Below the pieces are notes generated by a model. That model did no database searches. It worked only from the letters and a program-made list of their open reading frames with translations, and had not been told where the DNA came from. A stretch of 64,000 nt of DNA from Candidatus Thiopontia autotrophica (lineage in GTDB: Bacteria; Pseudomonadota; Gammaproteobacteria; GCF-002020875). The stretch is taken from assembly GCA_014384675.1 (NCBI GenBank), contig JACNFK010000014.1, positions 1,213 through 65,212 of the forward strand, read 5' to 3'. Shown piece after piece: positions 22,994 to 53,970 of the stretch; the stretch's first letter is position 1; every line of letters starts with the position of its first letter. The translations under genes and the position numbers were made by a program.

Positions 22994-24382
22994 CTAAGGC
23001 TCCATGTCATACTGGCTAATCAGCCTTCTCAGGCGTGGGCGAGATACCCCCAGAATTTCACAGGCCCTTCCCTTATGCCATCCTGTGGCATCCAGAACGC
23101 GCAGTACATGTTCTCGCTCAACCTCTTGCAGAGATCGATTGACCTGGTCACTGACTGTTTCTGCCCGTTGCAGGGTTGAGTTCAGAGATTGATTCGGAAG
23201 GTCGCTTGCAAGAGCGCCGCTACAGAGATTTTCAGGTATCAGATCTGGGGTTATGGAGTCTCCTGGAGATAGTGCAACAAGCTTGGTTAGCAGGTTTTCC
23301 AGTTCACGAATATTCCCGGGCCAATCATACTGCTGAAAACAGTTGATAACCTCCATGCTTATCTGGCTTACATTTCTTCCCAGTTCACTGTTGATACGAT
23401 CCAGCAGGCTACGTACCAGATCCAGCAGATCATCCTTGCGTTCACGAAGTGGTGGAATATGGATAGTTACTACCTGGAGTCGATAGAATAGATCGGCACG
23501 GAACTCACCATTTTTAACCCGCTCATCAAAATCTATATTGGTAGCAGCTATAACACGTGCATTGTTGGTGATTGGATACTTGCCACCAACTGGAGTGAAC
23601 TCCTTCTCTTGTAGTACACGCAGTAATTTTGCCTGCATGTTTGGTGAGAGCTCTCCAATTTCATCAAGAAATATGGTTCCTCCCGAGGCAAGCTCAAATT
23701 TGCCAAGTTGTTTGGATGTGGCGCCGGTGAATGAGCCTTTTTCATGACCAAAAAGATCTGATTCCAGCAGGGTTTCGACAACGGCAGCACAATTTACGGC
23801 CACAAATGGACCGTCTGCAAGCTTTCCAGAGTTATGAATAGCATTGGCTACCAGCTCTTTTCCTGTGCCACTCTCTCCGGTAATAAGAACTGTGGCTGGG
23901 CTCTGTGCCACCATACCGATGGTCTTGAAAACCTCTCGCATCACATTGCTGTGGCCAACCATGGTTGAGCGGCTACTTGATGTGGATGCAGGTTCAACCA
24001 TCTGCTCAGTAGGACCATCTTGTGCCAGCAGGCGGGCTATCGACTGATCAAGTTCATCGATATCAATTGGTTTATGAATATAGTCATCAGCACCATTCTG
24101 CATTGCCTGAATAGTGCTCTCCATATCATGAAATGCAGTAATCATGATTATGTGTGCCTTGGGGAAAGTAGTAACAAATTCTGGTAGCCCCTCCAGTCCG
24201 GTTTTCCCCGGCATCTTAATATCGAGAATAATGATTTCAGGGGGGAGAGGCAGGGCTGATCCGGATGCGATTCCTTTATCAACACTGTGGCTGGTTGTAA
24301 CACTGTGCCCCTGCGCACCAAAATGGAGTTTAAGGGTTCTGCAGCTTGCCTCATCGTCATCGACAATTAATATATTTGCCAT
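22994..24382 (-). CDS. Sigma-54-dependent two-component response regulator (NtrC family: receiver, AAA+ and Fis-type HTH domains)
   Basis: Receiver domain (ILIVDDD...ILDIKMPG), a GESGTGKELVANAIH Walker A motif and a C-terminal HTH. Confidence 0.9.
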   Translation of the reverse strand: MANILIVDDDEASCRTLKLHFGAQGHSVTTSHSVDKGIASGSALPLPPEIIILDIKMPGKTGLEGLPEFVTTFPKAHIIMITAFHDMESTIQAMQNGADDYIHKPIDIDELDQSIARLLAQDGPTEQMVEPASTSSSRSTMVGHSNVMREVFKTIGMVAQSPATVLITGESGTGKELVANAIHNSGKLADGPFVAVNCAAVVETLLESDLFGHEKGSFTGATSKQLGKFELASGGTIFLDEIGELSPNMQAKLLRVLQEKEFTPVGGKYPITNNARVIAATNIDFDERVKNGEFRADLFYRLQVVTIHIPPLRERKDDLLDLVRSLLDRINSELGRNVSQISMEVINCFQQYDWPGNIRELENLLTKLVALSPGDSITPDLIPENLCSGALASDLPNQSLNSTLQRAETVSDQVNRSLQEVEREHVLRVLDATGWHKGRACEILGVSRPRLRRLISQYDMEP

Positions 24383-24425
24383 AATTCAGCTCTCTCTAAA
24401 TAATCTATATGCGGAAGGACAATTG

Positions 24426-27095
24426 TCATGACTTGCTTGTGGTTTCAGCCGTATCATCAAGTTTTTTGGTTTTAATGAATGTTGTCGGTGCTCTGTCTGC
24501 TTCAGTATCTGGAATATTATGTTTCATGTGGGTAACCGGAAGCGTAATAACTACACAAGTGCCAACCCCATTATTGCTCTCCATGGATATGGTTCCATTG
24601 TGTTGTTCAATAACTCGTTTAACGATAGCCAGCCCAAGTCCTGTCCCCTTTGATCGGCTGGTGACAAAAGGCTCAAAGATTTCGTCTCTGTTTGATTCAT
24701 CTATCCCTGTGCCATTGTCGCAGATCTCTAGCTGGATGATTGAGCCATCATCATGCAGATCCATGCGTGCATTGATGATTATTTTTGGTCTGTCTGGGGC
24801 TGCTTCGGTAATCGCATGGATTGCATTGCTTAGCAGGTTGGTTAATACACGACGCATCTTGGTTTTGTCGACCTGTATTGTGGGTAGGCCGGCTGGATAG
24901 TGGGTGATTACGTCAATGCTGTTTTCAATGATCTGTTTTTGAATGGCATTGATTGCGGTCTCGGTTAATTTATCAAGGCTGCTCCAGGAGAGATCCAGTT
25001 CATCTGGTCGGGAATATGCGAGTAGCCCGTCCAGAATACTCTCCATGTAACGAATCTGTTGTAGCCCAATTTCATGCAACTCTCTATCTTCAGCGTTTCC
25101 GCCCTCTTTTTTGCTGAGAATCTGTAGCCCCATTTTGATGGATGAGAGAGGGTTGCGCAGATCATGAGCAACCATGCTGGCCATGCGTCCAACTACAGCA
25201 AGAGTCTTGGCTTGTGCTAACTCATCTTTTCGTTTCCGAATCTCCTCTTCAAGATCTTTTTGTGCAGTGATATCTTCCTTAACGGAGAGGAAGTGAGTTA
25301 TCTCACCATCTTCGTTGCGAATTGGTGACATAAGGGCGGACTCCCAATATAGTTCACCGCTCTTCTTTCTATTATGAAGGATGCCGCGCCACTCTTTTCC
25401 ACTACTGATTGTCTGCCACAGATCTCTGTACTCTTCTGGAGAGGTGTCTCCTGATTTCAGGATGCGAGGGTTTTTTCCTATTACCTCTTGTGGCAGATAG
25501 CCGGTGAGTTCGGTGAATTTTGGATTGACGTACTCAATTCTGCCAGTTCTGTCTGTAATCAGGATTACAGCAGGGCTCTGTTCAGCAGCACGCGCCAGCT
25601 TGGTAAGCTCTTCACGAGTTTGGTGCTGCTCAGTAATGTCCTGTCCAATACAGGTGATGCTCTCTATCTGGTTTGCATCATTAATAGTGGTTGTTGAAGT
25701 CCATGCAATCAGTCTATTCTTGCCACGAAAATCAATAATATGAGACTCATGGTAAGTTGACCCCTGCAAGCCATCTTCTCCATCAAGAATCTGTTTTATC
25801 CCGTTTATACTGTCACCATCAGGAACAAAATTATCAAACCAGTTTTTTCCGATCACATCACTGCGACGTTTTCTGAGCAGGTGTAGCAGGTAGTTGTTGC
25901 AGAACAGGATGTTGCCATCCAGATCAATGGTGAGTGCGGCAAGATGTATCTCTTCAAGAGTGTCTCGGAAGCGCAGCTCATTTGCCCGCTGTAGCTCATG
26001 TTCCTCTCTGCGTATGATGTTGTTGGTGAGTAGCAATGACAGTAGTGAGATAAAGAAGAGAATTGCTATATAGAGCAATCTGTTTTTCTGCAGAAAACCA
26101 AGTGGCGTGGACTCAAGGTTGGATGTTGGCAGGTAAGAGATAACTTTCCAGTTATATCTATTTAGCTGATCTGTGCTGATTATATGGTCAGTTGTTCCTG
26201 CTCTTATCTGGGCAACCCTGAGAGGGTTTACAGTTATATGCGAGAAGAGGCCGTTTGCTGTAATGAACTGCCCGGATTTTGTGCCACTAATATGGCTCCA
26301 TTCACTTTTAAACTCACTACTGAAAATATTGTCAGGATTGCCCAGCATGAATCCCCACTCTTTTTCCGGATTATTATGGCTTAGCCAGTATCCGTCACTG
26401 TTAACCAGATGCACCCTGTCCGTAATAGAGGCCACAGCACTTCTGAAGTTGTTGACGAGATCGATACCAAGATAGTTGAGTACGATCATCCCCCGACGCT
26501 CACCAGAAGATGAGTAAATAGGGGTGACAAATCTGATAACAGGTTTGTATGGGGTCTCCAGGCTGTTATTCTCAATATTAAGGTCCATAGGAGACAGGTA
26601 GACCTCACCATCAAGAAGTTCGAGCCCCTCTTTGATGTAGTATCTGTCAGACTTGTTTTGCAACTCTGAATCTGCAACCGAGATTCCACCCTTGTTACTG
26701 TAGTTTATTCGGCAAAGCTCATTGCCGGAATCGTCTATATAACGGATCTGATCATATATTCCGTTGTTGTTGGCAAAACTCAGAAACAGCTGGTTGATGT
26801 CGCTCTTCTTTTGAGCCATTTCTGTCTTGTCTACAAACATGATGTTATCCATCTGTTCTGCAAGGAAGAGCAGGTCAGAGACAATCTTCGATATATCTTT
26901 TGTAATCATCTCCTCGGCAAGGTGAATATTTAGCTCTTCAGCTCGCTTGATTGCGTTACCACGCACCTCATAATCAGAGTAGAAATGGATAGTGGCAGCC
27001 ACAAACAGGACAACTATCATGGGTAAAAGGAAGAGCATTAACAGGCGGCTCTTCTTTAACAGTGATGGAGTGTAGTGGTGTAGCGTCATCCGCAA
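24426..27095 (-). CDS. Sensor histidine kinase with a periplasmic dCache-like domain, two PAS domains, HisKA and HATPase_c
   Basis: A TM helix (LLMLFLLPMIVVLFVAATI), a roughly 300 aa periplasmic domain, then a second TM. The H-box is MASMVAHDLRNPLSSIK. There is no receiver domain. Confidence 0.85.
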   Translation of the reverse strand: MRMTLHHYTPSLLKKSRLLMLFLLPMIVVLFVAATIHFYSDYEVRGNAIKRAEELNIHLAEEMITKDISKIVSDLLFLAEQMDNIMFVDKTEMAQKKSDINQLFLSFANNNGIYDQIRYIDDSGNELCRINYSNKGGISVADSELQNKSDRYYIKEGLELLDGEVYLSPMDLNIENNSLETPYKPVIRFVTPIYSSSGERRGMIVLNYLGIDLVNNFRSAVASITDRVHLVNSDGYWLSHNNPEKEWGFMLGNPDNIFSSEFKSEWSHISGTKSGQFITANGLFSHITVNPLRVAQIRAGTTDHIISTDQLNRYNWKVISYLPTSNLESTPLGFLQKNRLLYIAILFFISLLSLLLTNNIIRREEHELQRANELRFRDTLEEIHLAALTIDLDGNILFCNNYLLHLLRKRRSDVIGKNWFDNFVPDGDSINGIKQILDGEDGLQGSTYHESHIIDFRGKNRLIAWTSTTTINDANQIESITCIGQDITEQHQTREELTKLARAAEQSPAVILITDRTGRIEYVNPKFTELTGYLPQEVIGKNPRILKSGDTSPEEYRDLWQTISSGKEWRGILHNRKKSGELYWESALMSPIRNEDGEITHFLSVKEDITAQKDLEEEIRKRKDELAQAKTLAVVGRMASMVAHDLRNPLSSIKMGLQILSKKEGGNAEDRELHEIGLQQIRYMESILDGLLAYSRPDELDLSWSSLDKLTETAINAIQKQIIENSIDVITHYPAGLPTIQVDKTKMRRVLTNLLSNAIHAITEAAPDRPKIIINARMDLHDDGSIIQLEICDNGTGIDESNRDEIFEPFVTSRSKGTGLGLAIVKRVIEQHNGTISMESNNGVGTCVVITLPVTHMKHNIPDTEADRAPTTFIKTKKLDDTAETTSKS

Positions 27096-27418
27096 CGACT
27101 CCTTATCTCCAGTTCAACACGATCCAGATAATCGTCTAGGGATTCACCCCCGTCTCTGGGGACCAGAAAAATCAATTTTGCAGCAATCAGATAAGGTCTT
27201 CGCGCCCCATCTCCAGCTGGACGTTCATCCTGTAGATTGGCCTTCAGATAACGTAGTGCCTCTTCAGGATTTTCACAGTAGCGTGGGAGTGATACCTCAT
27301 CGGCATACCACTCAATAGCTGAAGAGACAGATAGCATCAGCACTACAACCACAACAACAAAAGGAAAAATCTTTCCAATTGGGAAGGCATCCGTATACAT
27401 GTTTTCCTGATTACTCAT
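27086..27418 (-). CDS. Small membrane-anchored protein of unknown function
   Basis: Single TM helix (FPFVVVVVVLMLSV). ATGA overlap with the HemY-like stop, and its own stop overlaps the kinase start, so it is translationally coupled in the operon. Confidence 0.4.
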   Translation of the reverse strand: MSNQENMYTDAFPIGKIFPFVVVVVVLMLSVSSAIEWYADEVSLPRYCENPEEALRYLKANLQDERPAGDGARRPYLIAAKLIFLVPRDGGESLDDYLDRVELEIRSRCG

Positions 27419-28884
27419 GATGTATGAAGCACCGAGTGGTCGGATGGTCTCCAAATTGAGCGAATGGTTGATACTGATGCAGTAGATGGAGAGATGTTCT
27501 CTTGTTTGAGAATCTCCGCTGATAAAATTTGCCCCTGGGCGATACGGTCACGTACTGAGACTCCTCCAATGTAGTTGGCAGCAATATGGATACCAGGGGA
27601 GGATGATATATTCGATTTTATCTGCTTCACTCGTGCAGCATATCTGCCATGGTATAGAGGTAGTGCGTCCTGGTGGCGGTGTAGTGTCACCATCTCTGGA
27701 GCCCCGTTAATTCCCAAAATTGGTTTAAGAGCAGAAACAGTTCTCTCTACAATCTCCTCACTCTTCCATTGCTGGATCTCCGGGTGACGTGCACCGCCCA
27801 GATATGTGGTTAGCAGAATCTTGCCCTCGGGGGCGCGATTGTTGAAAAGGCTGCTCATCCAGATATTGCCATTGAATGGTGTGTTCTCGGATTTCGGAGT
27901 AAGGAAGCCGGTACCATCCAGAGAGTGGTCAATCTGACCACGGTCAAAGCCTGTGTGCAGTACTGTGAGGGGGGCATATTCAATCCCGTCCAGAAGTCGA
28001 CTTGCCTCAGGGGATATCGAGCTTAGCAGAGTTGCAGTTACTGCTGCCGGGGTGCTGAAAATTATATGGTGAGCATCCTGTTCAATCTCTATGGATTGTG
28101 GGGATGACCTGTCATGGCCAAACAGACGCCATTTCGGGCTGTTGTTGGTTGATCCAGGTGCTCTTTCAATTGCTGTTGCCTCAAGATTGGTACGGAAGGT
28201 GATCCCCGACTGTCGTGCCAACTGTTCAACCAGGGTAGACATGCCTCCCTTAAAGGAGAAAGTCTCGGTAATGCATCCACTCTTTTTTCGATTGAATTTG
28301 TGAATCATGGCGCCTGCTGTCAGGCTACCATATCTCTTTTCCAGAGCAGTCAGTCTTCCAAGTGTTGCCTCGGCATTGGCCAGATCTGGATCGGAGGCCA
28401 GGGTTCCGGAGACAAATGGGTCCATCGCCTTTTCCAGAAGCTCTCTACCAAAACGGCGTGTAATAAACTCGCTAACCGTCTCATTCTCACTGCCACCACG
28501 AGGAATAAATGGCTCAGCCAGCATTCTCAGCCGTCCTCTCATGCTCCAGCTTTTAGAGAAGAGGACGCTCTGCATATTCATGGAGATGGAGTTGAGTTTC
28601 CCGTTGCTTAACAGGTATCGATTCTGCTCTGCAAGTTGGGTGCGACTGCTCTTTAGTTTCTCAAGCCCGCTCTTTGCTATCAGCTCAGCAACCTCGGGAC
28701 GGAAGTTCAGCAGCAGGGCTGCAGCCTGCTCCATTGTGTACCCATCATGCTCGGTGGTCTTTATCTTTCCTCCGGGTCGTTTGTCACGCTCCCAGATCTC
28801 CACCTCCATCCCGGCCTGGCTCAACCACCATGCAGTTGAAAGTCCGGAGATACCGCCACCAACAATCAATACCTTTTTGGTCAC
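27415..28884 (-). CDS. HemY-family FAD-dependent protoporphyrinogen/coproporphyrinogen oxidase homolog
   Basis: N-terminal VLIVGGGISGLSTAWWL dinucleotide fold. A central ETVSEFITRRFGRELLEKAMDPFVSGTLASDPD block resembles PPOX, and the C-terminus reads NYIGGVSVRDRI. Confidence 0.7.
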   Translation of the reverse strand: MTKKVLIVGGGISGLSTAWWLSQAGMEVEIWERDKRPGGKIKTTEHDGYTMEQAAALLLNFRPEVAELIAKSGLEKLKSSRTQLAEQNRYLLSNGKLNSISMNMQSVLFSKSWSMRGRLRMLAEPFIPRGGSENETVSEFITRRFGRELLEKAMDPFVSGTLASDPDLANAEATLGRLTALEKRYGSLTAGAMIHKFNRKKSGCITETFSFKGGMSTLVEQLARQSGITFRTNLEATAIERAPGSTNNSPKWRLFGHDRSSPQSIEIEQDAHHIIFSTPAAVTATLLSSISPEASRLLDGIEYAPLTVLHTGFDRGQIDHSLDGTGFLTPKSENTPFNGNIWMSSLFNNRAPEGKILLTTYLGGARHPEIQQWKSEEIVERTVSALKPILGINGAPEMVTLHRHQDALPLYHGRYAARVKQIKSNISSSPGIHIAANYIGGVSVRDRIAQGQILSAEILKQENISPSTASVSTIRSIWRPSDHSVLHTS

Positions 28885-30923: not shown

Positions 30924-30936
30924 TATGGAAAAGCAA

Positions 30937-31151
30937 CAGCGCCTCGCGCAAAGACGCAAAGAGGCAAAGGTTCTTTCATCGTCTTTTCTGCAGGATGTGC
31001 GTGATTGATTGTGTGGGTGATTTTTTTAGCTCTATAGATGTACTGCATCACTGAGTAGATTGTAGGTAGTAATTCGTTGCCAATGGGCATTCTGAATTGA
31101 ATACCATTGAACGCTTTTCTTAGCGGCTTTGCGTCTTTGCGCGAGGCGCTG
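30937..31151. repeat. 215 bp element bounded by perfect 25 bp terminal inverted repeats (CAGCGCCTCGCGCAAAGACGCAAAG)
   Basis: Left arm 30937-30961, right arm 31127-31151 as the exact reverse complement. It fills the Usp / radical SAM intergenic gap. Confidence 0.8.
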
Positions 31152-36975: not shown

Positions 36976-37087
36976 TTGAACGATATGTTCAATTGGAAGA
37001 ATCGTTCCATAGATTATTGAACAAAACGTTCAGTTTGTGAACATTATGGTCTATTTTTTATAAACTTAAAACTGAACAAAACGTTCA
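36976..37087. promoter_or_regulatory. Three TGAAC-N5-GTTCA palindromes (candidate UAS/enhancer sites) plus one TGGAA-N6-TTCCA palindrome
   Basis: TTGAACGATATGTTCAA (36976-36992), TGAACAAAACGTTCA (37018-37032) and TGAACAAAACGTTCA (37073-37087), plus TGGAAGAATCGTTCCA (36994-37009). They lie in a divergent AT-rich intergenic region between two sigma-54 promoters. Confidence 0.6.
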
Positions 37088-37348: not shown

Positions 37349-37393
37349 CTTTTCAAACACCAAAGCGCTCATAATCATTTAGCAGGTAAACTG

Positions 37394-37519
37394 ATGAAAA
37401 CTGGAATTGCATTTGTAGTTGCCCTTTTTGTGGCATTTTTTCTGTTCTATGGAATGGATCATCTCATCATGGGAATGCAGGGGCTTCCTCTGAATCTCGA
37501 CATGTCGCCGGCGCAGTAG
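37394..37519 (+). CDS. 41 aa single-TM peptide, possibly a CydX-like accessory subunit
   Basis: MKTGIAFVVALFVAFFLFYGMDHLIMGMQGLPLNLDMSPAQ. It ends 16 nt before the CydA-like start. Confidence 0.3.
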   Translation: MKTGIAFVVALFVAFFLFYGMDHLIMGMQGLPLNLDMSPAQ

Positions 37520-40177: not shown

Positions 40178-40242
40178 TCGAGATTTCAATGGCAGCGGAT
40201 GCTGCGATTTTTTTAACTTTTTATCAATGTAAGGAATTAATA

Positions 40243-40560
40243 ATGAACAAGGTAATGATTAGTGTTGTGGCAACTGTAGTAATGGCTTCAAGCCAGTCTG
40301 TAATGGCCGATGCCGCCGGTGATTTTGCCGCCGGCTGTTTTGCCTGTCACAGCCCTGCAACTGCAGCTGCAGTAGGCGCTCCTGGCATGGGTGATAAGGC
40401 TGCCTGGGCGCCACGCATCGCCAAGGGTATGGATGCACTCTATGCAACCGCAATCAATGGCTCTCCAACAAACCCACTGATGATGCCGCGTGGTGGAACC
40501 GCTTTGAGTGATGATGCGCTAAAGGCTGTGGTGGACTACATGGTTGAGCAGTCAAAATAA
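40243..40560 (+). CDS. Monoheme cytochrome c (c5/c553-like)
   Basis: Signal peptide, then a CFACH heme motif in a roughly 85-residue mature domain. The start is taken at MNKVMIS, which has a better RBS than the ORF-track start at 40189. Confidence 0.75.
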   Translation: MNKVMISVVATVVMASSQSVMADAAGDFAAGCFACHSPATAAAVGAPGMGDKAAWAPRIAKGMDALYATAINGSPTNPLMMPRGGTALSDDALKAVVDYMVEQSK

Positions 40561-43051: not shown

Positions 43052-43120
43052 GCTCTCTATTCTCGGACAGCCTCCAAGTAGTCTTCTCTGCAGTGATAGT
43101 TAATTGATTGCCCTTGATTT

Positions 43121-43154
43121 ACCCTCCCGGCACTGTCGGCGAGGGTATTTTTTT
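43121..43154 (+). terminator. Rho-independent terminator after the triheme cytochrome gene
   Basis: ACCCTC...GAGGGT stem followed by ATTTTTTT. Confidence 0.5.
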
Positions 43155-43183
43155 GAATGTAACGTTCTGTTTGAGTGGTCAGT

Positions 43184-43241
43184 TGAACGATTCGTTTAAG
43201 TAGTTCACCATAGTTACAGATAAAGTGAATAATGTGTTCAC
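43184..43241. promoter_or_regulatory. Two TGAA-N7-TTCA palindromes (candidate UAS sites) upstream of the CCP operon promoter
   Basis: TGAACGATTCGTTTA (43184-43198, one mismatch) and GTGAATAATGTGTTCAC (43225-43241). Both have the same half-site and spacing as the 36976-37087 sites. Confidence 0.5.
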
Positions 43242-43328: not shown

Positions 43329-43344
43329 TGGCACAGAAAATGCT
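43329..43344 (+). promoter_or_regulatory. Sigma-54 (-24/-12) promoter for the CCP-CCP-Rieske-Mo operon
   Basis: TGGCACAGAAAATGCT, exact TGGCAC with a correctly spaced GC, about 120 nt upstream of the first CCP start. Confidence 0.6.
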
Positions 43345-43466: not shown

Positions 43467-44603
43467 ATGGGAGAACGACTGAAAACAGTGCAAGGTGCAA
43501 TCGCAGCAACGATTGCCCTGAGCCTGAGTGTCGGGGTATCCACAGCGGTTGCAGCAGGGTCTCATGGACCAGTTGCCAAGATCGATGTGAATGCTGCGAA
43601 GGCTGAGCTCGGTAAACGACTCTTCTTTGACCGCCGCCTATCGGGTGATGCGGGTATAGCATGTGCGGATTGTCACAGTCCAGATCACGGTTTTGGTAGT
43701 AAGGATGCGCTTTCACCTGGATACCCAGGTAACGGCCATTTCCGCAACGCACCATCACTGGTGAATACGGCACATAAGAAGACATGGATGCATGATGGCC
43801 GCCTCGGTACCAACCTCAATGATGTTACTCGTGAGATGCTCACAGAGGACTACATCATGAATATGGACATGCGGATGATGCAGGAACGTGTCAAACAGGA
43901 TTCAGAATACCTGGCACTCTACAAGGCTGCAGGTATGAATGAGCCATCAAATGGCAGTATTCGTAAAATGCTCCCTATCTTCATGAAGACTCTGACCACA
44001 CGCAATGCGCCAGTGGACAATGGGACTATGAGTGATGCAGCAAAACGTGGCGGAGCAATCTTTGACGGCAAGGGTGGATGTAACCAGTGTCATACTGGTG
44101 CCCTCTACTCAGATGGTGGTCGTCACAACACAGGTGTTCCTGAGAATCTGGATGTCTTCCTTGATCCAATGAACCATCAGGCATACCTAGCCTACGGAAT
44201 TGGTATGGGGGTTGAGAATATTTTCAATACCAAACGTGATATTGGTGCGGCAGTACAGACTCATGAGGCTGACGGTTCTGACCGCGGCATGTTCATGACC
44301 CCGCAGTTACGTGGTCTCAAGTACAGTGCTCCATATATGCATAACGGCATGATGGGCACGCTTGATGATGTGGTTGAGTTCTACAATCAGGGTGGTGGTC
44401 AGGATAGCAACAAGAGCTCTCTGCTTAAGCCACTACGTTTGACTGACGGTGAGAAAGCTGATCTGGTGGCCTATCTTGAGGCACTATCAGGCGACGCACT
44501 GACTGGTCCAGAGTTTGTATGGTCCAAGCCATTCCCTGCAGAGTATGAGGTTATCGAGAACTGGAGACAGGTCGATAACCGTACACGTGCACCAATCAAA
44601 TAA
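43467..44603 (+). CDS. Di-heme cytochrome c peroxidase (CCP/MauG family); IdrP1-like
   Basis: Signal peptide. Two CxxCH motifs (CADCHSP and CNQCHTG) and a conserved CCP C-terminal block (MHNGMMGTLDDVVEFYNQGGG). Confidence 0.85.
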   Translation: MGERLKTVQGAIAATIALSLSVGVSTAVAAGSHGPVAKIDVNAAKAELGKRLFFDRRLSGDAGIACADCHSPDHGFGSKDALSPGYPGNGHFRNAPSLVNTAHKKTWMHDGRLGTNLNDVTREMLTEDYIMNMDMRMMQERVKQDSEYLALYKAAGMNEPSNGSIRKMLPIFMKTLTTRNAPVDNGTMSDAAKRGGAIFDGKGGCNQCHTGALYSDGGRHNTGVPENLDVFLDPMNHQAYLAYGIGMGVENIFNTKRDIGAAVQTHEADGSDRGMFMTPQLRGLKYSAPYMHNGMMGTLDDVVEFYNQGGGQDSNKSSLLKPLRLTDGEKADLVAYLEALSGDALTGPEFVWSKPFPAEYEVIENWRQVDNRTRAPIK

Positions 44604-44622
44604 GCGATCAGGAGAGTTAATT

Positions 44623-45882
44623 ATGTTTGAAAAGAAAAACAGAAACCCAATCGCTGTTGCTGTCGTAATGACTACAACATTGATGGTTGGATGTACCTCA
44701 CAGGCGGGTTCTGTTGCCACCGAGACTGCAGCTGCTCCAACAGTTGTTGCCTCCATGGATAGTGGAACACCTATAGTAGCACCTGGCCTTAAGCCGGCTG
44801 GCGCCTCAATCAACCCATCTCTGGCGGCACTTGGTCCAGTACCGGTTCCTCCAGATAACCCCATCACTCCTGCAAAGGTAGAGCTGGGCAAGATGTTGTT
44901 TTTTGAGCCAGCAATCGGTGGTGATACCTCAACTCCTTGCTCTGCATGTCATGAGCCGGATCAGGGTTGGGCATGGGCCGAGGATATCTCTCGTGGATAC
45001 CCAGGTACTGTTCACTGGCGTAACAGCCAGACTGCGGTTAACTCAGCCTACTACCCACGTCTCTTCTGGGCAGGTTCTGTATCCTCACTAGAGGCACAGG
45101 CCAAGTCTGCGGCAGGCGGTGCAGTAGCAGGTAATGCGGAGTTCGATATTGTTGAGGCCCGTCTTGCTCTGATGCCAGAGTACAGAAAACGTTTCAATGA
45201 GGTCTTCGGCGACGAAATGCCTCTATACAGAAATGCATTCCGTGCGATTGCTGCTTTTGAGCGTGCTGAGCTGGTTCAGCGTGATGCACCAATTGATAAC
45301 TACTTCAATGGTGATGACAGCGCACTGAGCGAAGAGCAGAAGCGCGGTATGGCTCTGTTTAACGGCAAGGCAAACTGTATTGAGTGTCATAATGGCCCAA
45401 TGGCTACGGATTTTGACTTCTACAATATTGGTGTGCCTACTCTAGAGCGTTGGAAGACCGATGGTCTGGCACAGATAACTTATCGTTATGAGATGTATGC
45501 CAAGGGTTCAAACGAGGAGATGTATCGCAACTCCAAGGGCGATCCAGGCTTCTACTTCCGTGGTAAGAATAGCTGGGACAAGGGTAAATTCCGGGTTCCA
45601 TCACTGCGCTACACTATGTATACCGCACCGTATATGCATAACGGCACACTCATGACACTGGAAGATGTTGTTGACTTCTATAATGAGGGCGGTGGCCATA
45701 ATGACTACTCCAAAAACAAGAGTGATCTTATCAAGCCTCTTGGTCTGAGTGATGAAGAGAAAGAAGATCTGGTTGCGTTCCTGGAGGCATTCTCTGGTGA
45801 TGAGATTGAGATTGAGCGTCCCAAGATGCCTGGTTATGCACCTCTGTTTACCAAGGCAGAGCTGATGATGGAGAAGAAATAA
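44623..45882 (+). CDS. Di-heme cytochrome c peroxidase, lipoprotein; IdrP2-like
   Basis: LMVGC lipobox. CSACHEP and CIECHNG heme motifs, and the CCP block MHNGTLMTLEDVVDFYNEGGG. The start is taken at MFEKKN, which has an AGGAG RBS. Confidence 0.85.
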   Translation: MFEKKNRNPIAVAVVMTTTLMVGCTSQAGSVATETAAAPTVVASMDSGTPIVAPGLKPAGASINPSLAALGPVPVPPDNPITPAKVELGKMLFFEPAIGGDTSTPCSACHEPDQGWAWAEDISRGYPGTVHWRNSQTAVNSAYYPRLFWAGSVSSLEAQAKSAAGGAVAGNAEFDIVEARLALMPEYRKRFNEVFGDEMPLYRNAFRAIAAFERAELVQRDAPIDNYFNGDDSALSEEQKRGMALFNGKANCIECHNGPMATDFDFYNIGVPTLERWKTDGLAQITYRYEMYAKGSNEEMYRNSKGDPGFYFRGKNSWDKGKFRVPSLRYTMYTAPYMHNGTLMTLEDVVDFYNEGGGHNDYSKNKSDLIKPLGLSDEEKEDLVAFLEAFSGDEIEIERPKMPGYAPLFTKAELMMEKK

Positions 45883-46478
45883 TGAGCACTAAAACAGAAG
45901 TGACAAAGAAAAGAGAGGACCAGACTGCTGGTGAGCACGGCAAGTGCATGCTCAACCGCCGTCAGTTCCTGATGTACAGTGGTGCTACTGCAGCCACTGC
46001 GAGCACTGTCTCTCTTACCCTGTTCCCAGGAACAGCCAAGGCTGTACAGACCAAGGCACGAGTGGTTGGTTATCCTCGCAAACTGGTTGGTAAGCTGAGT
46101 GAGATGAAGGATAACGTTCCAGTAATGATCAACTATCCAGATAATGGCAAGAACTCCATGGCTACCATGGTGAAGACTGGCGTTAAATGTGGTGGTGGAG
46201 TCGGTGCTGGACGTGACCTGGTTGCATTCAGTGCGCTCTGTACACATCAGGGTGGCCCACTGCTGGGACGTTACACTGCGGTAGATGAGCATAGAGTTAT
46301 GGGTTCATGCCCACTGCATCTATCTACCTACGATGTGACTCGCCATGGAATCATTGTCTCTGGTCAGGCTTATGAGAGTCTGCCACAGGTCCTCCTGGAG
46401 CTGGATGGAGATGATATCTACGCAGTTGGCATGATGGGGCTGATTTACGGCCGTAACCAGAACCTGATGGAATCTTAA
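45882..46478 (+). CDS. TAT-exported Rieske [2Fe-2S] small subunit (AioB/IdrB-like)
   Basis: RRQFL twin-arginine motif. The Rieske ligands are CTHQGGPL ... CPLHLSTY. The start overlaps the CCP2 stop. Confidence 0.8.
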   Translation: MSTKTEVTKKREDQTAGEHGKCMLNRRQFLMYSGATAATASTVSLTLFPGTAKAVQTKARVVGYPRKLVGKLSEMKDNVPVMINYPDNGKNSMATMVKTGVKCGGGVGAGRDLVAFSALCTHQGGPLLGRYTAVDEHRVMGSCPLHLSTYDVTRHGIIVSGQAYESLPQVLLELDGDDIYAVGMMGLIYGRNQNLMES

Positions 46479-46490: not shown

Positions 46491-49184
46491 ATGTCTACAA
46501 ATTATTATCTGCCAGAAGACTCCGCACCATTGCCACCCAAGCATGCGGAAGTCCTGACTACAGCCTGTGACTACTGTATTGTTGCCTGTGGCTATAAAGT
46601 CTATCGCTGGCCTGTCGGCTCTGGTGATGGTGGTCCAACTGCTGATGCAAATGCATTCGGTCAGGACTTCCCAACCAGCGCCCTTCAAAACTGGGTAGCC
46701 CCTGCACAGCATAATGTTGTTATGCACGGTGGTCGTCCACATAACGTGATCGTTGTCCCTGATAAGGACACTCAAGCGGTTAACAAAACCGGTGACTCCT
46801 CCATGCGTGGTGGTCTGCTTGCAGCCAAGTGCTACAATCCAAAGACCCCTACCCGTGATCGTCTCACCAATCCTATGGTACGTATCAACGGTACCCTTCA
46901 GCCAGTTAGTTGGGACTTCGCTCTCGATATTGCTGCTGAGGTTGGTAAGTATGTCATCAAGAACCATGGCGCTAACGCCTACTCGGTGAAGACATTCTCC
47001 TACCAGTATCTTGAGAACACCTATGCGATCAAGAAGTATGCACGTCGTAATGTAAATACTGCATCCTTCACCTTCCACGATACCCCATCTGACGTAACCT
47101 CTACACCAGGTTTCCGTGATGCCGGTTTCGATAACTTTGGCCCATCATATGATGACTGGGGAGATGCAGATGTACTGCAGATCCATGGTACAGATCCGTA
47201 TGAGACCAAGACCATTATCTATACGCAGTTCATCAAACCTGCGATTGAGCGTGGCATGAAGACCATCTGGCTGAATCCTCGTGAGACTGCCGGTATCGCC
47301 TATGCAAACAGCAAGGGTCCTGATCAGACTATCCACTTCCAGCTGACACTTGGTACCGATACGGTGCTTATGGGTGCAATTGCCCGTGTCATCTGTGAGA
47401 ACGGATGGGAGGACAAGGATTGGGTAAACAACTGGGTCAACAGCAAGTGGGAGACCTCTTCCGGCTTCGGTCAGGGAACCCGTAATACCCCATGGCAGTG
47501 GCGTACAACCTGGGGCATGTTCCAGCTCAAGGGTGGCTATAAAGGCTACAGCAAGTGGGTTCAGTCCAAGGATGAGTACAAGGTAGAGAATGCCGCGAAG
47601 ATCTGTGATGTTCCTGCTGCAGATATCATCAAGGCTGCTGAGTGGCTCACCAACAAGGGCGCTGGAACCAAGGCCTCCTTCGGTATCGAGAAGGGCTACT
47701 ACTGGTCCAACAATACCGGTAACACCAATGCTGTATCTTCACTGGCAACCATCTGTGGTGCCGGCGGACGTCCAGGACAGGTTGTTGGTCGCTTCGGTGG
47801 TCACCAGCGTGGTGGTGCAGGTGGCGGTAGCTATCCTCGTAACAAGTCTCCAGAGAAGCGTCCAGGTCGTCGTCGTCGTTCACTCGACACCGATCGTTAC
47901 CTGATCTCCGGTCACACCCGCTTTGCACACGTAATCGGCACTACCTGGATTCAGGCAATGACCGGTTCTCAGAGCCTCTACCACAAGTTCCATGAGCTGG
48001 TACTTGCCAACCCTAATCAGGTTAAATCCTATGATAAGGGTGATATCATCGAGACCCTGAAGAAGCGTGCTGATTCTGGTGGTATGGTTGTGATCAATCA
48101 GGATATCTATCTACGTGATCCAATCGGTGCCCGTTTCGCGGATGTGGTCTTCCCGGCTGCAACCTGGGGTGAGTCTGACTTCACCAGATCAAACGGTGAG
48201 CGTCGTCTTCGTATCTACAACAAGTTCTACGATGCCCCAGGACAGGCAATGCCAGACTGGTGGATTATTGGTGGAATGGCGAGCCGTATGGGCTACGAAG
48301 GCTTCGACTGGAAGAGCGCCAATGAGGTTGCGGAGGAGTCTACACGCTCCAGCCGTGGTAACCGTAAGGCATACCATATGATCAAGGTCGCGGCACATCG
48401 TGAGGGTAAAACCTTCCATGAGAAGATGCGTGAGTTTGGTACTACTGGTATCCAGGGACCAACAGTCTATAACTACAACACCGGTGAACTGCATGGAACC
48501 AAGCGTCTCCATGACACTACACTGACTGAAGCAGATATGGAGCGTATGGGTGTCACCCAGGGTGCCAACATGACCAACAAGAAGATGACGCACTTCAACT
48601 CTCAGACCGGTAAGGTCAATATCCAGAAGCATCCATGGAAACTGTTTGCAGACTTCCATGATTGGCTCTCTCCCAAGGGGGACGAGCTCTGGTTCTCGAA
48701 TGGTCGTATCAACGAGATCTGGCAGTCTGGATTTGATGATGTTGAGCGTCGTCCTTACGTGACACAGCGTTGGCCTGAGAACTGGGTAGAGATCCATCCT
48801 GATGATGCCAAGGCTCGTGGAATCGAGTCTGGTGATCAGGTCATGCTCTACTCTGATCGTGTGGTCGAGTCCAAGGACACCATCCTCGGTGTTCATGGCA
48901 ATGACTTCCAGTTCTCTGAGATGATGAAGAATGGTCATCTCAAGCTAACCAAGGCCGCAGTCACAGCCGTTGCAGTAATCGCTCCCCACCTGAAGAAGGG
49001 AATGATGTACGGCAATATGCTGGATATGCGCCAGCCCAACAATGCGTTGCAGAACCGCGTGGTCGATCAGATCAGTGGTAACTACAACTACAAGATGGGT
49101 GTGGCCAGGGTCAAGAAGATTGGTGAGTCGAAGTACAAGAAGGAGTTCCGCTCCATGTCCTTCGCACCACGTAATATCATCTAG
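46491..49184 (+). CDS. Molybdopterin (bis-MGD) oxidoreductase large subunit of the AioA/IdrA clade; an iodate reductase-type catalytic subunit is the favoured reading
   Basis: N-terminal LPPKHAEVLTTACDYCIVACGYKVYRWP contains the Cys-X2-Cys-X3-Cys 3Fe-4S motif diagnostic of arsenite oxidase-like enzymes. Further blocks (NVIVVPDKD, IWLNPRET, RFGGHQRGG) align with AioA. 897 aa. Confidence 0.85.
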   Translation: MSTNYYLPEDSAPLPPKHAEVLTTACDYCIVACGYKVYRWPVGSGDGGPTADANAFGQDFPTSALQNWVAPAQHNVVMHGGRPHNVIVVPDKDTQAVNKTGDSSMRGGLLAAKCYNPKTPTRDRLTNPMVRINGTLQPVSWDFALDIAAEVGKYVIKNHGANAYSVKTFSYQYLENTYAIKKYARRNVNTASFTFHDTPSDVTSTPGFRDAGFDNFGPSYDDWGDADVLQIHGTDPYETKTIIYTQFIKPAIERGMKTIWLNPRETAGIAYANSKGPDQTIHFQLTLGTDTVLMGAIARVICENGWEDKDWVNNWVNSKWETSSGFGQGTRNTPWQWRTTWGMFQLKGGYKGYSKWVQSKDEYKVENAAKICDVPAADIIKAAEWLTNKGAGTKASFGIEKGYYWSNNTGNTNAVSSLATICGAGGRPGQVVGRFGGHQRGGAGGGSYPRNKSPEKRPGRRRRSLDTDRYLISGHTRFAHVIGTTWIQAMTGSQSLYHKFHELVLANPNQVKSYDKGDIIETLKKRADSGGMVVINQDIYLRDPIGARFADVVFPAATWGESDFTRSNGERRLRIYNKFYDAPGQAMPDWWIIGGMASRMGYEGFDWKSANEVAEESTRSSRGNRKAYHMIKVAAHREGKTFHEKMREFGTTGIQGPTVYNYNTGELHGTKRLHDTTLTEADMERMGVTQGANMTNKKMTHFNSQTGKVNIQKHPWKLFADFHDWLSPKGDELWFSNGRINEIWQSGFDDVERRPYVTQRWPENWVEIHPDDAKARGIESGDQVMLYSDRVVESKDTILGVHGNDFQFSEMMKNGHLKLTKAAVTAVAVIAPHLKKGMMYGNMLDMRQPNNALQNRVVDQISGNYNYKMGVARVKKIGESKYKKEFRSMSFAPRNII

Positions 49185-49203
49185 ATCTGACCTTCGTGTT
49201 GTG

Positions 49204-49241
49204 AAAAACCCCGGTAGCTTAAATGCTACCGGGGTTTTTTT
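49204..49241. terminator. Strong bidirectional rho-independent terminator
   Basis: AAAAACCCCGGTAGC-TTAAAT-GCTACCGGGGTTTTTTT, a 15 bp perfect stem with an A-tract upstream and a T-tract downstream. Confidence 0.85.
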
Positions 49242-49478
49242 ATGGTGTTTGAATCCTTGTGAAAATTCTGAAAAAACTTTTTCAGAGGCTCCCTAACTAA
49301 CCATAGGTAGAAAAATTGATCCAGGTCAATTCAGTAGAATCAGTAATCAACTATAGTCTTAAGTGTCTGTTGTGATCTCCGATTATTATTCCTACATTAG
49401 TATGAAGAGGGAGCAGGCACCGCACCGGTTCACTTCTCCAAGCGAACCGGTGCATCTGTGTGAATGGTTGATGTAGTG

Positions 49479-53968: not shown

Positions 53969-53970
53969 AG

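What the first reader, a model, noticed from the sequence alone, without database searches (positions are those of the whole stretch)
22994..49250. A 26 kb island wired as one sigma-54 regulon: a cognate two-component system, three TGGCAY-N5-ATGC promoters and shared TGAA-N7-TTCA enhancer palindromes
Three candidate sigma-54 promoters (36896-36911 on the minus strand, 37141-37156 and 43329-43344 on the plus strand) share the same unusual -12 variant (ATGC rather than TTGC) with exact GG-N10-GC spacing. Each sits 60-170 bp from 15-17 bp palindromes of one family: TGAAC-N5-GTTCA, three copies at 36976-37087 and two at 43184-43241. An NtrC-family sigma-54 activator and a dCache/PAS histidine kinase lie at the island's left end, translationally coupled to island enzymes. 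Together this implies a single signal-responsive regulon that covers tetrapyrrole-like enzymes, a cytochrome chain and an Idr-like reductase. The sensor-plus-regulon architecture does not match any characterized system I recognise.
Basis: seen in the sequence. Interest (0 to 1): 0.85.

Follow-up and report, generated by a model that had tools for sequence, protein, structure and literature searches.

The report
Conserved sigma-54 regulon around iodate reductase
Three neighbouring operons (an iodate-reductase operon, an uncharacterised cytochrome bd-like oxidase module, and haem-related helper genes that end in a sensor kinase and regulator) share sigma-54-type promoters and one repeated palindrome, a layout conserved in many marine sulfur-oxidising bacteria and best read as a new variant of a known control scheme.

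Summary
All three TGGCAY-N5-ATGC sites in the 64 kb window lie in two intergenic regions and face operon starts. All three exact TGAAC-N5-GTTCA palindromes lie between the divergent promoters, and two one-mismatch copies lie upstream of the third. About 20 related genomes, mostly Gammaproteobacteria plus Parvularculaceae, keep the same promoter-palindrome-promoter layout while the surrounding DNA diverges. 20 of 21 exact palindromes in 1.2 Mb of related loci fall in these regulatory regions. The kinase and NtrC-type regulator are the last genes of the leftward operon in three distant relatives. Unrelated metagenome loci show homologous regulators next to the same palindrome pair plus a sigma-54 promoter.

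The right operon is a typical idrP1-P2-B-A iodate-reductase cluster: 47% identical to the large subunit of a proven iodate respirer, 27-29% to arsenite oxidases. The middle operon is an OR-N-like cytochrome bd module. The left operon encodes HemY-like and AhbD/NirJ-like proteins.

AioXSR/RpoN control of arsenite oxidase is a close analogue, and Rhodocyclales idr clusters have their own sigma-54 two-component system. ATGC is conserved only at the idr promoter. Nothing marks the region as a transferred island. All function is inferred.

The parts
22994..24382 (-). NtrC-family response regulator / bacterial enhancer-binding protein (receiver D54, AAA+ sigma-54 activation domain with GSFTGA loop, Fis-type HTH); last gene of the leftward operon
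   Evidence: Pfam; translation; 60-65% orthologues at the same operon position in Sedimenticola and a tubeworm symbiont
24426..27095 (-). Sensor histidine kinase: TM, periplasmic HK_sensor_dom_bact/Cache-like domain, TM, two PAS, HisKA, HATPase
   Evidence: Pfam; TM prediction; sensor domain 27% identical (E 8e-26) to the kinase next to idr in Azonexus hydrophilus
27086..27454 (-). Small single-TM protein (p122; likely start at 27418, ATGA overlap with the upstream gene), no family match; conserved partner of the cluster
27415..28884 (-). HemY-type FAD oxidase (protoporphyrinogen/coproporphyrinogen oxidase family)
   Evidence: Pfam Amino_oxidase; NCBIfam TIGR00562, 250 bits against a cutoff of 98
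28881..30959 (-). Radical SAM/SPASM enzyme (AhbD/NirJ2-like) fused to three PCP_red domains
31159..33318 (-). Usp domains fused to four PCP_red domains
33581..34348 (-). CarboxypepD_reg-like beta-sandwich protein
34405..36846 (-). HEAT / PBS-lyase-like repeat protein; first gene of the leftward operon
36896..36911 (-). P1: sigma-54-type promoter TGGCACACCTTATGCA; predicted start near 36885, about 39 nt before the HEAT start codon
   Evidence: conserved in 22 related loci
36931..36943 (+). IHF-consensus site AATCAATGGGTTG between P1 and the first palindrome
   Evidence: partly conserved in L003; ihfB is encoded at 18478-18774
36977..37087 (.). Shared upstream activating region: exact TGAAC-N5-GTTCA at 36977-36991, 37018-37032 and 37073-37087, plus a two-mismatch copy at 37039-37053
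   Evidence: same three sites with the same 42/55 bp spacing in L003
37141..37156 (+). P2: sigma-54-type promoter TGGCATATAAAATGCA; predicted start near 37167
37196..37519 (+). Two small ORFs: a 50-aa single-TM protein (37196-37348) and a 41-aa ORF (37394-37519), at the head of the bd-like operon
37536..39356 (+). Cytochrome bd subunit-I-like membrane protein (OR-N-like; only the N-terminal part matches CydA)
   Evidence: literature
39353..40560 (+). Two c-type cytochromes (dihaem 274 aa, membrane-anchored; monohaem 105-123 aa)
40616..43051 (+). Membrane protein with three CXXCH haem c sites and an EB_dh (haem b) domain
43120..43153 (+). Intrinsic-terminator-like hairpin (about 12 bp stem plus a U run) that ends the bd-like operon
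43155..43240 (.). Upstream activating region of the idr operon: TGAAC-N5-GTTCA-type sites at 43155 (2 mismatches), 43184 (1) and 43226 (1)
43329..43344 (+). P3: sigma-54-type promoter TGGCACAGAAAATGCT; predicted start near 43355
   Evidence: conserved 86-139 bp upstream of idrP1 in 12 gammaproteobacterial loci
43467..45882 (+). idrP1 (43467-44603) and idrP2 (44623-45882): di-haem cytochrome c peroxidase homologues
45882..46478 (+). idrB: Rieske subunit with a twin-arginine signal (NRRQFL)
46491..49184 (+). idrA: AioA-family molybdopterin subunit with the C-X2-C-X3-C 3Fe-4S motif
49203..49240 (+). Strong intrinsic terminator (16 bp stem plus a T run); right end of the regulon

Best explanation
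The 26 kb region is three operons under one two-component/sigma-54 circuit.

Proposed mechanism:
1. The membrane kinase senses a cue through its periplasmic Cache-like domain and/or its two cytoplasmic PAS domains. Low oxygen or redox state is the most likely cue, possibly together with an oxyanion such as iodate.
2. The kinase phosphorylates the NtrC-type regulator on D54.
3. Regulator dimers bind TGAAC-N5-GTTCA palindromes, typically a pair about 41-42 bp apart, 60-170 bp upstream of three sigma-54 promoters.
4. The regulator oligomerises and loops across AT-rich DNA. An IHF-consensus site lies at P1.
5. ATP hydrolysis opens the promoter complexes.

What each promoter drives:
- P1 drives the haem-related accessory operon, which ends with the kinase and regulator genes. 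This gives positive autoregulation.
- P2 drives an OR-N-like cytochrome bd module with its c-type and b-type cytochromes.
- P3 drives idrP1-P2-B-A, the periplasmic iodate reductase with its two peroxidases.

Shown here: the motifs, their positions, their conservation and the gene families. Inferred: sigma-54 dependence, regulator binding, the signal and co-induction.
For: Motif presence and placement in the window.

Conservation of the promoters and palindromes:
- P1, P2 and the palindromes between them recur in about 20 loci, mostly Gammaproteobacteria plus Parvularculaceae. The flanking bases are unconserved, and the HEAT protein is only 29-39% identical in most of these loci.
- P3 recurs 86-139 bp upstream of idrP1 in 12 gammaproteobacterial loci, with a palindrome about 90-100 bp further upstream.
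- 20 of 21 exact palindromes in 1.21 Mb of related loci lie in the regulatory 7% of that sequence.
- Sites with up to two mismatches occur at 7.5 per kb there against 0.63 per kb overall. The commonest spacing is 40-42 bp.
- Alignment with the closest genome shows conserved blocks exactly at P1, the IHF-like site, the palindromes, P2 and P3.

Link between the regulator and the palindrome:
- The regulator has every domain of an enhancer-binding protein.
- Kinase and regulator end the same operon in Sedimenticola hydrogenitrophicus and a Lamellibrachia symbiont, although the flanking genes differ. The same holds in Parvularculaceae.
- An unbiased metagenome scan for paired palindromes recovered loci L101, L144 and L127. 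There a kinase and a homologous regulator are immediately followed by the pair and then a sigma-54 promoter 75-89 bp further on. The L101 and L127 regulators are 44-45% identical over the full length. L144 shows a partial tblastn match of 55%.

Supporting context:
- Terminators close the middle and right operons.
- ihfB is encoded in the window.
- Analogy: AioR/RpoN at aioBA; sigma-54 promoter TGGCACAGTGACTGCA upstream of idrP1 in Azonexus.
- idr is induced by iodate and by static, oxygen-limited culture in Roseovarius azorensis.
Against: No experimental data exist: no mapped transcription starts, no rpoN mutant and no binding assay.

rpoN itself is not in the window and could not be searched in this genome.

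The count of three promoter matches is not very improbable on its own (5 of 100 shuffles). The case rests on position and conservation.

The regulator loop reads GSFTGA rather than GAFTGA, whereas orthologues have GAFTGA.

The P3 palindromes are imperfect in the window.

Sneathiellales and Hyphomicrobiales relatives (L034, L036, L049) have sigma-54-like promoters. L034 and L049 also carry a 45-50% identical regulator with a similar HTH. No TGAAC palindromes were found in any of the three.

Rhodobacterales relatives have neither motif. Roseovarius L050 carries a Crp/Fnr-type regulator instead. The wiring is therefore lineage-specific.

The related loci are not phylogenetically independent, so the enrichment p-value is inflated.
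Confidence: 0.68

Rival explanations
1. The sigma-54 promoters are real, but the palindromes are bound by a different protein, either another enhancer-binding protein or a repressor/anti-activator. In that case the adjacent two-component system would control something else, or only part of the region.
For: The regulator gene lies 12-14 kb from the sites it is proposed to bind. Relatives L034 and L049 carry a regulator with a similar SRP-containing recognition helix but have no detectable TGAAC palindromes. GAAC/GTTC half-sites are also used by unrelated regulators, for example the AioR footprint GTTCGGATTTCCGAAC.
Against: The two-component system is co-inherited with the cluster across classes. 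In unrelated contexts, homologous regulators sit directly beside the same palindrome pair plus a sigma-54 promoter. The sites sit at enhancer distance, not over the promoters. No other regulator gene is present in the region.
Confidence: 0.12
2. The region is not one co-induced unit. The two-component system is the cognate regulator of the bd-like module and its accessory operon only. The idr operon is mainly controlled by other inputs, such as iodate through another sensor, FNR-type oxygen control or read-through, and P3 makes a minor contribution.
For: The two-component system accompanies the bd-like module where idr is not adjacent (L028; probably L058 and L066). The P3 palindromes are imperfect in the window. 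idr has different regulators elsewhere: its own two-component system in Azonexus, Crp/Fnr next to the Roseovarius cluster, and nothing obvious in Vibrio. The window has a 112-nt 5'UTR with terminator-like hairpins between P3 and idrP1.
Against: P3 and an upstream palindrome are conserved in 12 gammaproteobacterial loci at a fixed distance from idrP1. L003 has an exact palindrome there. A terminator separates the middle operon from idr, so idr needs its own promoter.
Confidence: 0.15
3. The motifs are chance matches in AT-rich intergenic DNA, and the operons are transcribed from sigma-70 promoters.
For: Three TGGCAY-N5-ATGC matches are reached in 5 of 100 shuffles. Sigma-70-like hexamers are also found in the same intergenic regions.
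Against: GG-N10-GC sites and palindromes are conserved in position and orientation in about 20 genomes while the flanking bases vary. The count of sigma-70-like hits equals the shuffle expectation.
Confidence: 0.03

Closest known systems
AioXSR / RpoN control of arsenite oxidase aioBA (Rhizobium/Pseudorhizobium NT-26, Agrobacterium tumefaciens, Herminiimonas arsenicoxydans)
   Same: A sensor kinase and an NtrC-type sigma-54 activator are encoded next to a periplasmic Rieske/molybdopterin enzyme of the same enzyme family. The activator binds a palindrome with GTTC/GAAC half-sites upstream of a -24/-12 promoter.
   Different: No AioX periplasmic binding protein is encoded here, and the kinase has its own large Cache-like domain. 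The regulator is only 32% identical to AioR. The site is TGAAC-N5-GTTCA, not GTTCGG-N4-CCGAAC. The enzyme is Idr-type, 27-29% identical to AioA. The regulon spans three operons, and the regulator genes sit at the far end of one of them.
Canonical idr (iodate reductase) clusters of Rhodocyclales: Azonexus hydrophilus NCP973 and Azoarcus sp. DN11
   Same: The physical gene order idrP1-idrP2-idrB-idrA is the same. A kinase and a sigma-54-dependent regulator lie adjacent, and a sigma-54 promoter lies upstream of idrP1. The kinases share a related periplasmic sensor domain.
   Different: The regulator is only 36% identical and has a different HTH. The upstream repeat differs: CCGGTTAAAAAT-N14-ATTTTTAACCGG. 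There the two-component system lies immediately upstream and serves idr alone, with no bd-like module or haem-related operon. IdrA identity is 47%.
NtrC / glnAp2 paradigm of enhancer-dependent sigma-54 transcription
   Same: A phosphorylated receiver-AAA+-HTH activator binds tandem dyad sites on the same face of the helix about 100 bp upstream. Activation works by DNA looping, often with IHF, and by ATP-driven open-complex formation (established knowledge; anatomy).
   Different: The binding site, the signal and the target genes all differ. One enhancer region serves two divergent promoters.
OR-N family of cytochrome bd-like proteins (Murali, Gennis and Hemp classification; Nitrospirota, Nitrospinota, Ca. 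Manganitrophus)
   Same: The protein matches CydA only over the N-terminal haem-binding helices. It has many TM helices and is encoded with c-type cytochromes. Homologues occur in Nitrospinota and Magnetococcales, sometimes as tandem paralogues.
   Different: Subfamily assignment was not possible with these tools. The published operon contexts (petABD and others) do not mention the HemY/radical SAM/PCP_red/HEAT genes, the sigma-54 control or the link to idr seen here.
Rhodobacterales version of the same gene string (Roseovarius sp. L050; cf. iodate-reducing R. azorensis)
   Same: p122, the bd-like protein, the cytochromes and idrP1P2BA lie on one strand. idr is induced by iodate and low oxygen in R. 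azorensis.
   Different: There is no two-component system, GG-N10-GC promoter or TGAAC palindrome. A divergent Crp/Fnr-type regulator is present instead.

Membership tests
sigma-54-dependent promoter | GG at -24 and GC at -12 with exact 10-nt spacing and a TGGCAC/TTGCW-like context | tested here: met
   TGGCACACCTTATGCA, TGGCATATAAAATGCA and TGGCACAGAAAATGCT
sigma-54-dependent promoter | Located upstream of, and oriented towards, a gene start; conserved in orthologous regions | tested here: met
   29-112 nt before the start codons. Conserved in about 20 loci (P1, P2) and 12 loci (P3)
sigma-54-dependent promoter | Transcription start about 12 nt downstream of GC; dependence on rpoN | not testable with these tools
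   No expression data; rpoN is not in the window
NtrC-family bacterial enhancer-binding protein | Receiver domain with a phospho-acceptor Asp; AAA+ sigma-54 interaction domain with Walker A and a GAFTGA-type loop; C-terminal HTH | tested here: met
   Pfam Response_reg, Sigma54_activat (232 bits), AAA_lid_14 and HTH_8. D54, GESGTGKE, and GSFTGA, which differs from the canonical loop by one residue
NtrC-family bacterial enhancer-binding protein | Membership of a named equivalog (NtrC, AtoC, ZraR, NorR and others) | tested here: not met
   All NCBIfam equivalog scores are below their cutoffs; the best is ntrC at 419 against 559. The regulator is 32% identical to AioR and 36% to the Azonexus idr regulator
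Enhancer (UAS) for the regulator | Dyad-symmetric sites about 70-200 bp upstream of the promoter, conserved and enriched | tested here: met
Enhancer (UAS) for the regulator | Specific binding by the encoded regulator | not testable with these tools
   Indirect support only: homologous regulators lie beside the same paired sites in loci L101, L127 and L144
Iodate reductase cluster idrABP1P2 | AioA-family molybdopterin subunit with the 3Fe-4S motif that falls with IdrA rather than AioA | tested here: met
   CDYCIVAC motif at residue 26. 66% identical to the Vibrio homologue, 47% to Azonexus hydrophilus NCP973 (a proven iodate respirer) and 27-29% to AioA of NT-26, Thermus and others. No tree was built
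Iodate reductase cluster idrABP1P2 | Adjacent Rieske subunit with a Tat signal | tested here: met
   NRRQFL twin-arginine motif; CTH and CPLH motifs; arsenite_ox_S 115 bits
Iodate reductase cluster idrABP1P2 | Two di-haem cytochrome c peroxidase genes in the same cluster (the feature that separates idr from aio neighbourhoods, PMC8692401) | tested here: met
   CCP_MauG twice, each with two CXXCH. Definition quoted. Same order as Azonexus
Iodate reductase cluster idrABP1P2 | Iodate-reducing activity | not testable with these tools
   Uncultured source
AioXSR three-component system | AioX periplasmic binding protein gene next to the kinase; AioR-type binding site GTTCGG-N4-CCGAAC | tested here: not met
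   No binding-protein gene in the region. The palindrome has a different arrangement and spacing
OR-N cytochrome bd-like oxidase | CydA-like N-terminal haem-binding helices, no quinol-binding Q-loop, 10-14 TM helices, cytochrome c partners | tested here: inconclusive
   Pfam matches profile positions 2-251 of 418 only. At least 11 hydrophobic segments. Cytochrome c genes are adjacent. The subfamily HMMs and haem-ligand positions were not checked
Genomic island (horizontally transferred) | Atypical composition, a flanking tRNA or repeats, mobility genes | tested here: not met
   GC is 0.45-0.55 inside and outside. No tRNA. Flanks are housekeeping genes. The cluster does sit in different neighbourhoods in different genomes

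The most novel reading that the evidence does not exclude
The co-regulation reflects a functional unit that nobody has described. In this reading the OR-N-type bd-like complex works with IdrAB during iodate respiration. It could be the cytochrome-c-linked sink for O2, H2O2 or HOI released by iodate reduction, or the route that feeds electrons to IdrAB. The HemY-like, AhbD/NirJ-like-PCP_red, Usp-PCP_red and HEAT proteins would make or insert a modified tetrapyrrole specific to that complex. SCO1/PCuAC genes in relatives hint at a copper site as well. The conserved TGAAC-N5-GTTCA/sigma-54 circuit would then define a low-oxygen/iodate respiratory stimulon in sulfur-oxidising symbionts and oxygen-minimum-zone bacteria.
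Probability: 0.2. Interest if true: 0.8.

Novelty: new variant of a known kind. Interest (0 to 1): 0.55.

Why it matters
Iodate reduction by Idr is a recently recognised respiratory process in oxygen-minimum zones, and its regulation has not been studied beyond expression measurements. In the papers read here, OR-N cytochrome bd-like oxidases are treated as putative high-affinity oxidases of low-oxygen specialists, and no enzyme of the family has been characterised.

This analysis provides:
- a concrete, conserved cis-regulatory code: three sigma-54 promoters and a defined palindrome;
- a candidate regulator that ties both systems and a set of tetrapyrrole-related genes together in sulfur-oxidising symbionts and relatives;
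- cultured organisms that carry the same circuit and can be used for tests, notably Sedimenticola hydrogenitrophicus.

It also shows that the same structural genes are wired to three different regulators in different lineages: this two-component system, a separate two-component system in Rhodocyclales, and Crp/Fnr in Rhodobacterales. That is useful when interpreting idrA abundance and expression in metagenomes. Automatic annotation would also call this enzyme an arsenite oxidase, which is a mis-annotation risk.

Tried and rejected
1. Covariation between the regulator's recognition helix and the presence of palindromes. Regulators next to TGAAC sites share C-x-(I/L)-L-G-(V/I)-S-R-P-x-L-x-R. L034 and L049 also have SRP yet lack detectable palindromes, so this is not a clean discriminator.

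2. An internal sigma-54 promoter for p122-kinase-regulator. The site at 27634-27649 (-) scores well but is not conserved in 21 relatives, so I treat it as chance.

3. Defining the regulon by scanning metagenomes for paired palindromes. Only 1 of 80 loci was an island relative. It was still useful for the three or four regulator-adjacent cases.

4. Sigma-54-like sites within 30-250 bp of those pairs. These were only modestly enriched: 7 loci against about 3 expected.

5. Island status. GC profile, tRNA search and Rfam search were all negative.

6. The ATGC -12 variant as a unifying signature. Rejected for P1 and P2, kept for P3.

7. Literature on PCP_red-containing proteins, and the supplements of the bd-superfamily paper. 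Neither describes these accessory genes.

8. Vibrio sp. THAF190c, which has the closest idrA in the plasmid collection. It has idr alone, with none of the motifs.

9. Not done: subfamily assignment of the bd-like protein, an IdrA phylogeny, structure prediction.

Full report
**What is in the sequence**

The region 22994-49250 holds 16 sizeable genes and several small ORFs in three blocks.

The leftward block runs from 36846 down to 22994. In order it encodes:
- a HEAT/PBS-lyase-like repeat protein;
- a CarboxypepD_reg-like protein;
- a Usp protein with four PCP_red domains;
- a radical SAM/SPASM protein with three PCP_red domains;
- a HemY-type FAD oxidase;
- a 110-122 aa single-TM protein (p122);
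- a sensor kinase;
- an NtrC-type response regulator.

The first rightward block (37196-43051) encodes two tiny membrane proteins, a cytochrome bd subunit-I-like protein, two c-type cytochromes, and a membrane protein with three haem c sites and an EB_dh haem b domain. It ends in a hairpin plus U run.

The second rightward block (43467-49184) encodes two di-haem cytochrome c peroxidases, a Tat-signal Rieske protein and an AioA-family molybdopterin subunit. It ends in a 16-bp-stem terminator.

The flanks are housekeeping genes: aroA, cmk, rpsA, ihfB, lapB, pyrF, purB and a methyltransferase on the left; UbiT/U/V-type genes, thioredoxin and sbcB on the right. The contig is a metagenome assembly. 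The closest genome is a Saanich Inlet Thiotrichales MAG.

**Check of the observation**

TGGCAY-N5-ATGC occurs three times in 64 kb and nowhere else. By count this is only mildly unusual: 0.72 are expected and 5 of 100 shuffles reach three. Each copy, however, is intergenic and points at an operon start 29-112 nt away.

Exact TGAAC-N5-GTTCA occurs three times, all between the divergent promoters. One-mismatch copies occur twice upstream of the third promoter. With up to one mismatch there are 11 hits against 2.35 expected, and none of 100 shuffles reaches that.

The regulator has a receiver with D54, the Walker A GESGTGKE, a GSFTGA loop and a Fis-type HTH. The kinase has two TM helices around a Cache-like HK_sensor_dom_bact domain, then two PAS domains, HisKA and HATPase. 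Overlapping stop and start codons link the rSAM, HemY-like, p122 and kinase genes.

**Comparative test**

The bd-like protein has thousands of homologues. They are 75-80% identical in Thiodiazotropha, Sedimenticola, Thiolapillus and tubeworm symbionts.

Eighty genome loci anchored on this protein were compared by tblastn, with these results:
- The full divergent architecture is kept in about 14 gammaproteobacterial genomes. These include the cultured Sedimenticola hydrogenitrophicus, plus Motiliproteus and Aestuariirhabdus.
- In alphaproteobacterial loci (Hyphomicrobiales, Sneathiellales, Rhodobacterales), the bd-like module and idr follow each other on one strand.
- Magnetococcales, Burkholderiales, Rhodospirillaceae, deltaproteobacterial and Nitrospinota genomes have the bd-like module together with the Usp-PCP_red, rSAM-PCP_red and HemY-like genes, but no idr nearby.
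- The core unit is therefore the bd-like module with its accessory genes. idr is an add-on in some lineages.

**Footprinting**

In every locus with the divergent arrangement the same layout recurs (about 20 loci, including two Parvularculaceae). A GG-N10-GC site lies 60-120 bp upstream of the HEAT gene on its strand. A second lies upstream of the small ORF and bd-like gene. One to four TGAAC-N5-GTTCA-type palindromes lie between them. The bases flanking the motifs are not conserved.

The pooled site consensus is TGAACGATTCGTTCA. Two sites about 40-42 bp apart, roughly four helical turns, form the commonest arrangement.

The idr promoter recurs 86-139 bp upstream of idrP1 in 12 gammaproteobacterial loci, with a palindrome about 90-100 bp further upstream.

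In 1.21 Mb of these loci, 20 of 21 exact palindromes fall in the two regulatory regions, which make up 7% of the DNA. That statistic is inflated by shared ancestry. Sites with up to two mismatches are 12-fold enriched.

Pairwise alignment with the closest genome shows conserved blocks exactly at P1, an IHF-consensus site, each palindrome, P2, P3 and the ribosome-binding sites.

At P1 and P2 it is lineage-specific. At the idr promoter xATGCA is common across genera.

**Is the adjacent two-component system the regulator?**

Orthologues of the regulator (60-65% identical) come from the same taxa. In S. hydrogenitrophicus and a Lamellibrachia symbiont they end the same operon: CPDreg, Usp-PCP_red, rSAM-PCP_red, HemY-like, small protein, kinase, regulator. 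The flanking genes are unrelated to those in the window. Parvularculaceae show the same order.

It did return one island relative. It also returned three or four unrelated loci in which a kinase and a homologous NtrC-type regulator are immediately followed by the palindrome pair and a sigma-54 promoter 75-89 bp further on. Two of those regulators are 44-45% identical to ours over the full length. These promoters drive a Crp/Fnr-type regulator or a Tim44-like protein. The regulators share the HTH pattern C-x-(I/L)-L-G-(V/I)-S-R-P-x-L-x-R with ours.

This is the best available evidence that this regulator subfamily recognises TGAAC-N5-GTTCA. It remains indirect.

**What the genes are**

The right operon meets the published operational definition of an iodate-reductase cluster: an AioA-like subunit, a Rieske subunit and two cytochrome c peroxidases (PMC8692401).
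- The large subunit has the C-X2-C-X3-C motif.
- It is 66% identical to a Vibrio homologue, 47% to the enzyme of the proven iodate respirer Azonexus hydrophilus NCP973, and only 27-29% to arsenite oxidases.
- The Azonexus record shows that the physical gene order idrP1-P2-B-A is the normal one.
- NCBIfam would name both subunits arsenite oxidase, which is a mis-annotation risk.

The bd-like protein matches CydA only over its N-terminal part and sits with c-type cytochromes. This fits the uncharacterised OR-N family, which is thought to be a cytochrome-c-dependent, high-affinity oxidase family. I could not assign a subfamily.

The oxidase in the left operon passes the HemY (protoporphyrinogen oxidase) model. 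The radical SAM protein is closest to AhbD and NirJ2, although below their cutoffs. PCP_red is the C-terminal domain of the protochlorophyllide reductase 57 kD subunit (Pfam description). A tetrapyrrole-related role for the left operon is therefore a reasonable inference, not a demonstrated function.

**Most likely mechanism (inferred)**

The kinase senses low oxygen or redox state through its PAS domains, and possibly a periplasmic solute through its Cache-like domain. It phosphorylates the regulator. The regulator binds the palindromes and activates sigma-54 holoenzyme at P1, P2 and P3 by looping across 75-87% AT spacers, with an IHF-consensus site at P1.

P1 also transcribes the regulator genes, which gives positive feedback.

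The signal need not be iodate, because the two-component system accompanies the bd-like module where idr is not adjacent (L028). On the other hand, the sensor domain is related to that of the Azonexus idr kinase, and idr is induced by 0.1 uM iodate and by static culture in Roseovarius azorensis. The question stays open.

**Comparison with known systems**

The nearest characterised analogue is AioXSR/RpoN at aioBA. It also pairs a kinase and an NtrC-type activator with a sister enzyme, and its footprint GTTCGGATTTCCGAAC is also built from GTTC/GAAC half-sites. The present system differs in several ways. It lacks AioX. Its site has a different arrangement. Its regulator is only 32% identical.

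Canonical Rhodocyclales idr clusters have their own kinase, sigma-54 regulator and sigma-54 promoter (TGGCACAGTGACTGCA), but a different inverted repeat and a regulator only 36% identical. Rhodobacterales carry the same structural genes next to a Crp/Fnr-type regulator without any of these motifs. Vibrio has idr alone.

The structural genes are thus conserved while the regulation has been rewired at least three times.

**Novelty and score**

The control logic is a textbook enhancer-dependent sigma-54 circuit, and a sigma-54 two-component system next to idr had already been noted from annotation. The following parts were not found described in the papers searched:
- the defined palindrome;
- its use at three promoters;
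- the conserved coupling of Idr to an OR-N-like oxidase module and tetrapyrrole-related genes.

No compositional or mobility signal marks the region as an island.

I rate it a new variant of a known kind. Interest is moderate to good at 0.55, because it gives testable handles on two poorly understood respiratory systems. Everything functional remains to be shown.

Noticed in passing
L047 15458-16093; L013 15036-15671; L022 15226-15900 and 15904-16443: Relatives carry SCO1/SenC genes between the cytochrome c/EB_dh gene and idrP1. L022 also carries a PCu(A)C copper-chaperone gene there. The window has none. This hints that the bd-like module or a partner has a copper site.
   Followed up: partly
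L050 8323-9078 (Roseovarius sp. MAG): The same p122, bd-like, cytochrome and idrP1P2BA string is preceded by a divergent Crp/Fnr-type regulator. It has no sigma-54 promoters or TGAAC palindromes, so the same structural genes are regulated differently here.
   Followed up: partly
window 43376-43440: The 5'UTR of the idr operon has an insertion of about 65 nt relative to the closest genome (L003). It forms two hairpins followed by U runs and could be an attenuator or a repeat-element remnant.
   Followed up: partly
window 37196-37348, 37394-37519, 33468-33581: Three small ORFs of 50, 41 and 37 aa lie at operon heads or junctions. The 50-aa one has a single predicted TM helix and is 46-73% identical in relatives. 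They may be small subunits of the bd-like complex.
   Followed up: partly
window 18478-18774: ihfB (IHF beta subunit) lies between rpsA and lapB, so the looping factor that many sigma-54 promoters use is encoded in this genome.
   Followed up: yes
window 50108-54867: An SCP2 (UbiT-like) gene, a radical SAM gene, a flavoprotein gene and two U32 peptidase (UbiU/UbiV-like) genes lie just right of the cluster. They look like the oxygen-independent ubiquinone pathway, which fits a low-oxygen lifestyle.
   Followed up: no
L101 2584-2717; L144 148-281; L127 2142-2300; L111: In unrelated metagenome contigs a kinase and NtrC-type regulator are directly followed by a pair of exact TGAAC-N5-GTTCA palindromes (41 or 44 bp apart) and a sigma-54 promoter 75-89 bp further on. 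These promoters drive a Crp/Fnr-type regulator (L101) or a Tim44-like protein (L127).
   Followed up: partly
L086 8940-9060 (Azonexus hydrophilus NCP973 plasmid): The canonical idr operon of a proven iodate respirer has a sigma-54 promoter (TGGCACAGTGACTGCA) and a different inverted repeat (CCGGTTAAAAAT-N14-ATTTTTAACCGG) just after its own sigma-54 regulator gene.
   Followed up: partly
window 27634-27649 (-): A good sigma-54-like match (TGGCAGATATGCTGCA) lies inside the HemY-like gene, 216 nt before p122. It is not conserved in 21 relatives and is probably chance.
   Followed up: yes
L023 2215: This is the only exact TGAAC-N5-GTTCA outside the two regulatory regions in 1.2 Mb of related loci. 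It sits at the junction of the rSAM-PCP_red and HemY-like genes.
   Followed up: no
window 13198-14316: A Fic/DUF4172 protein gene lies among housekeeping genes to the left of the cluster.
   Followed up: no
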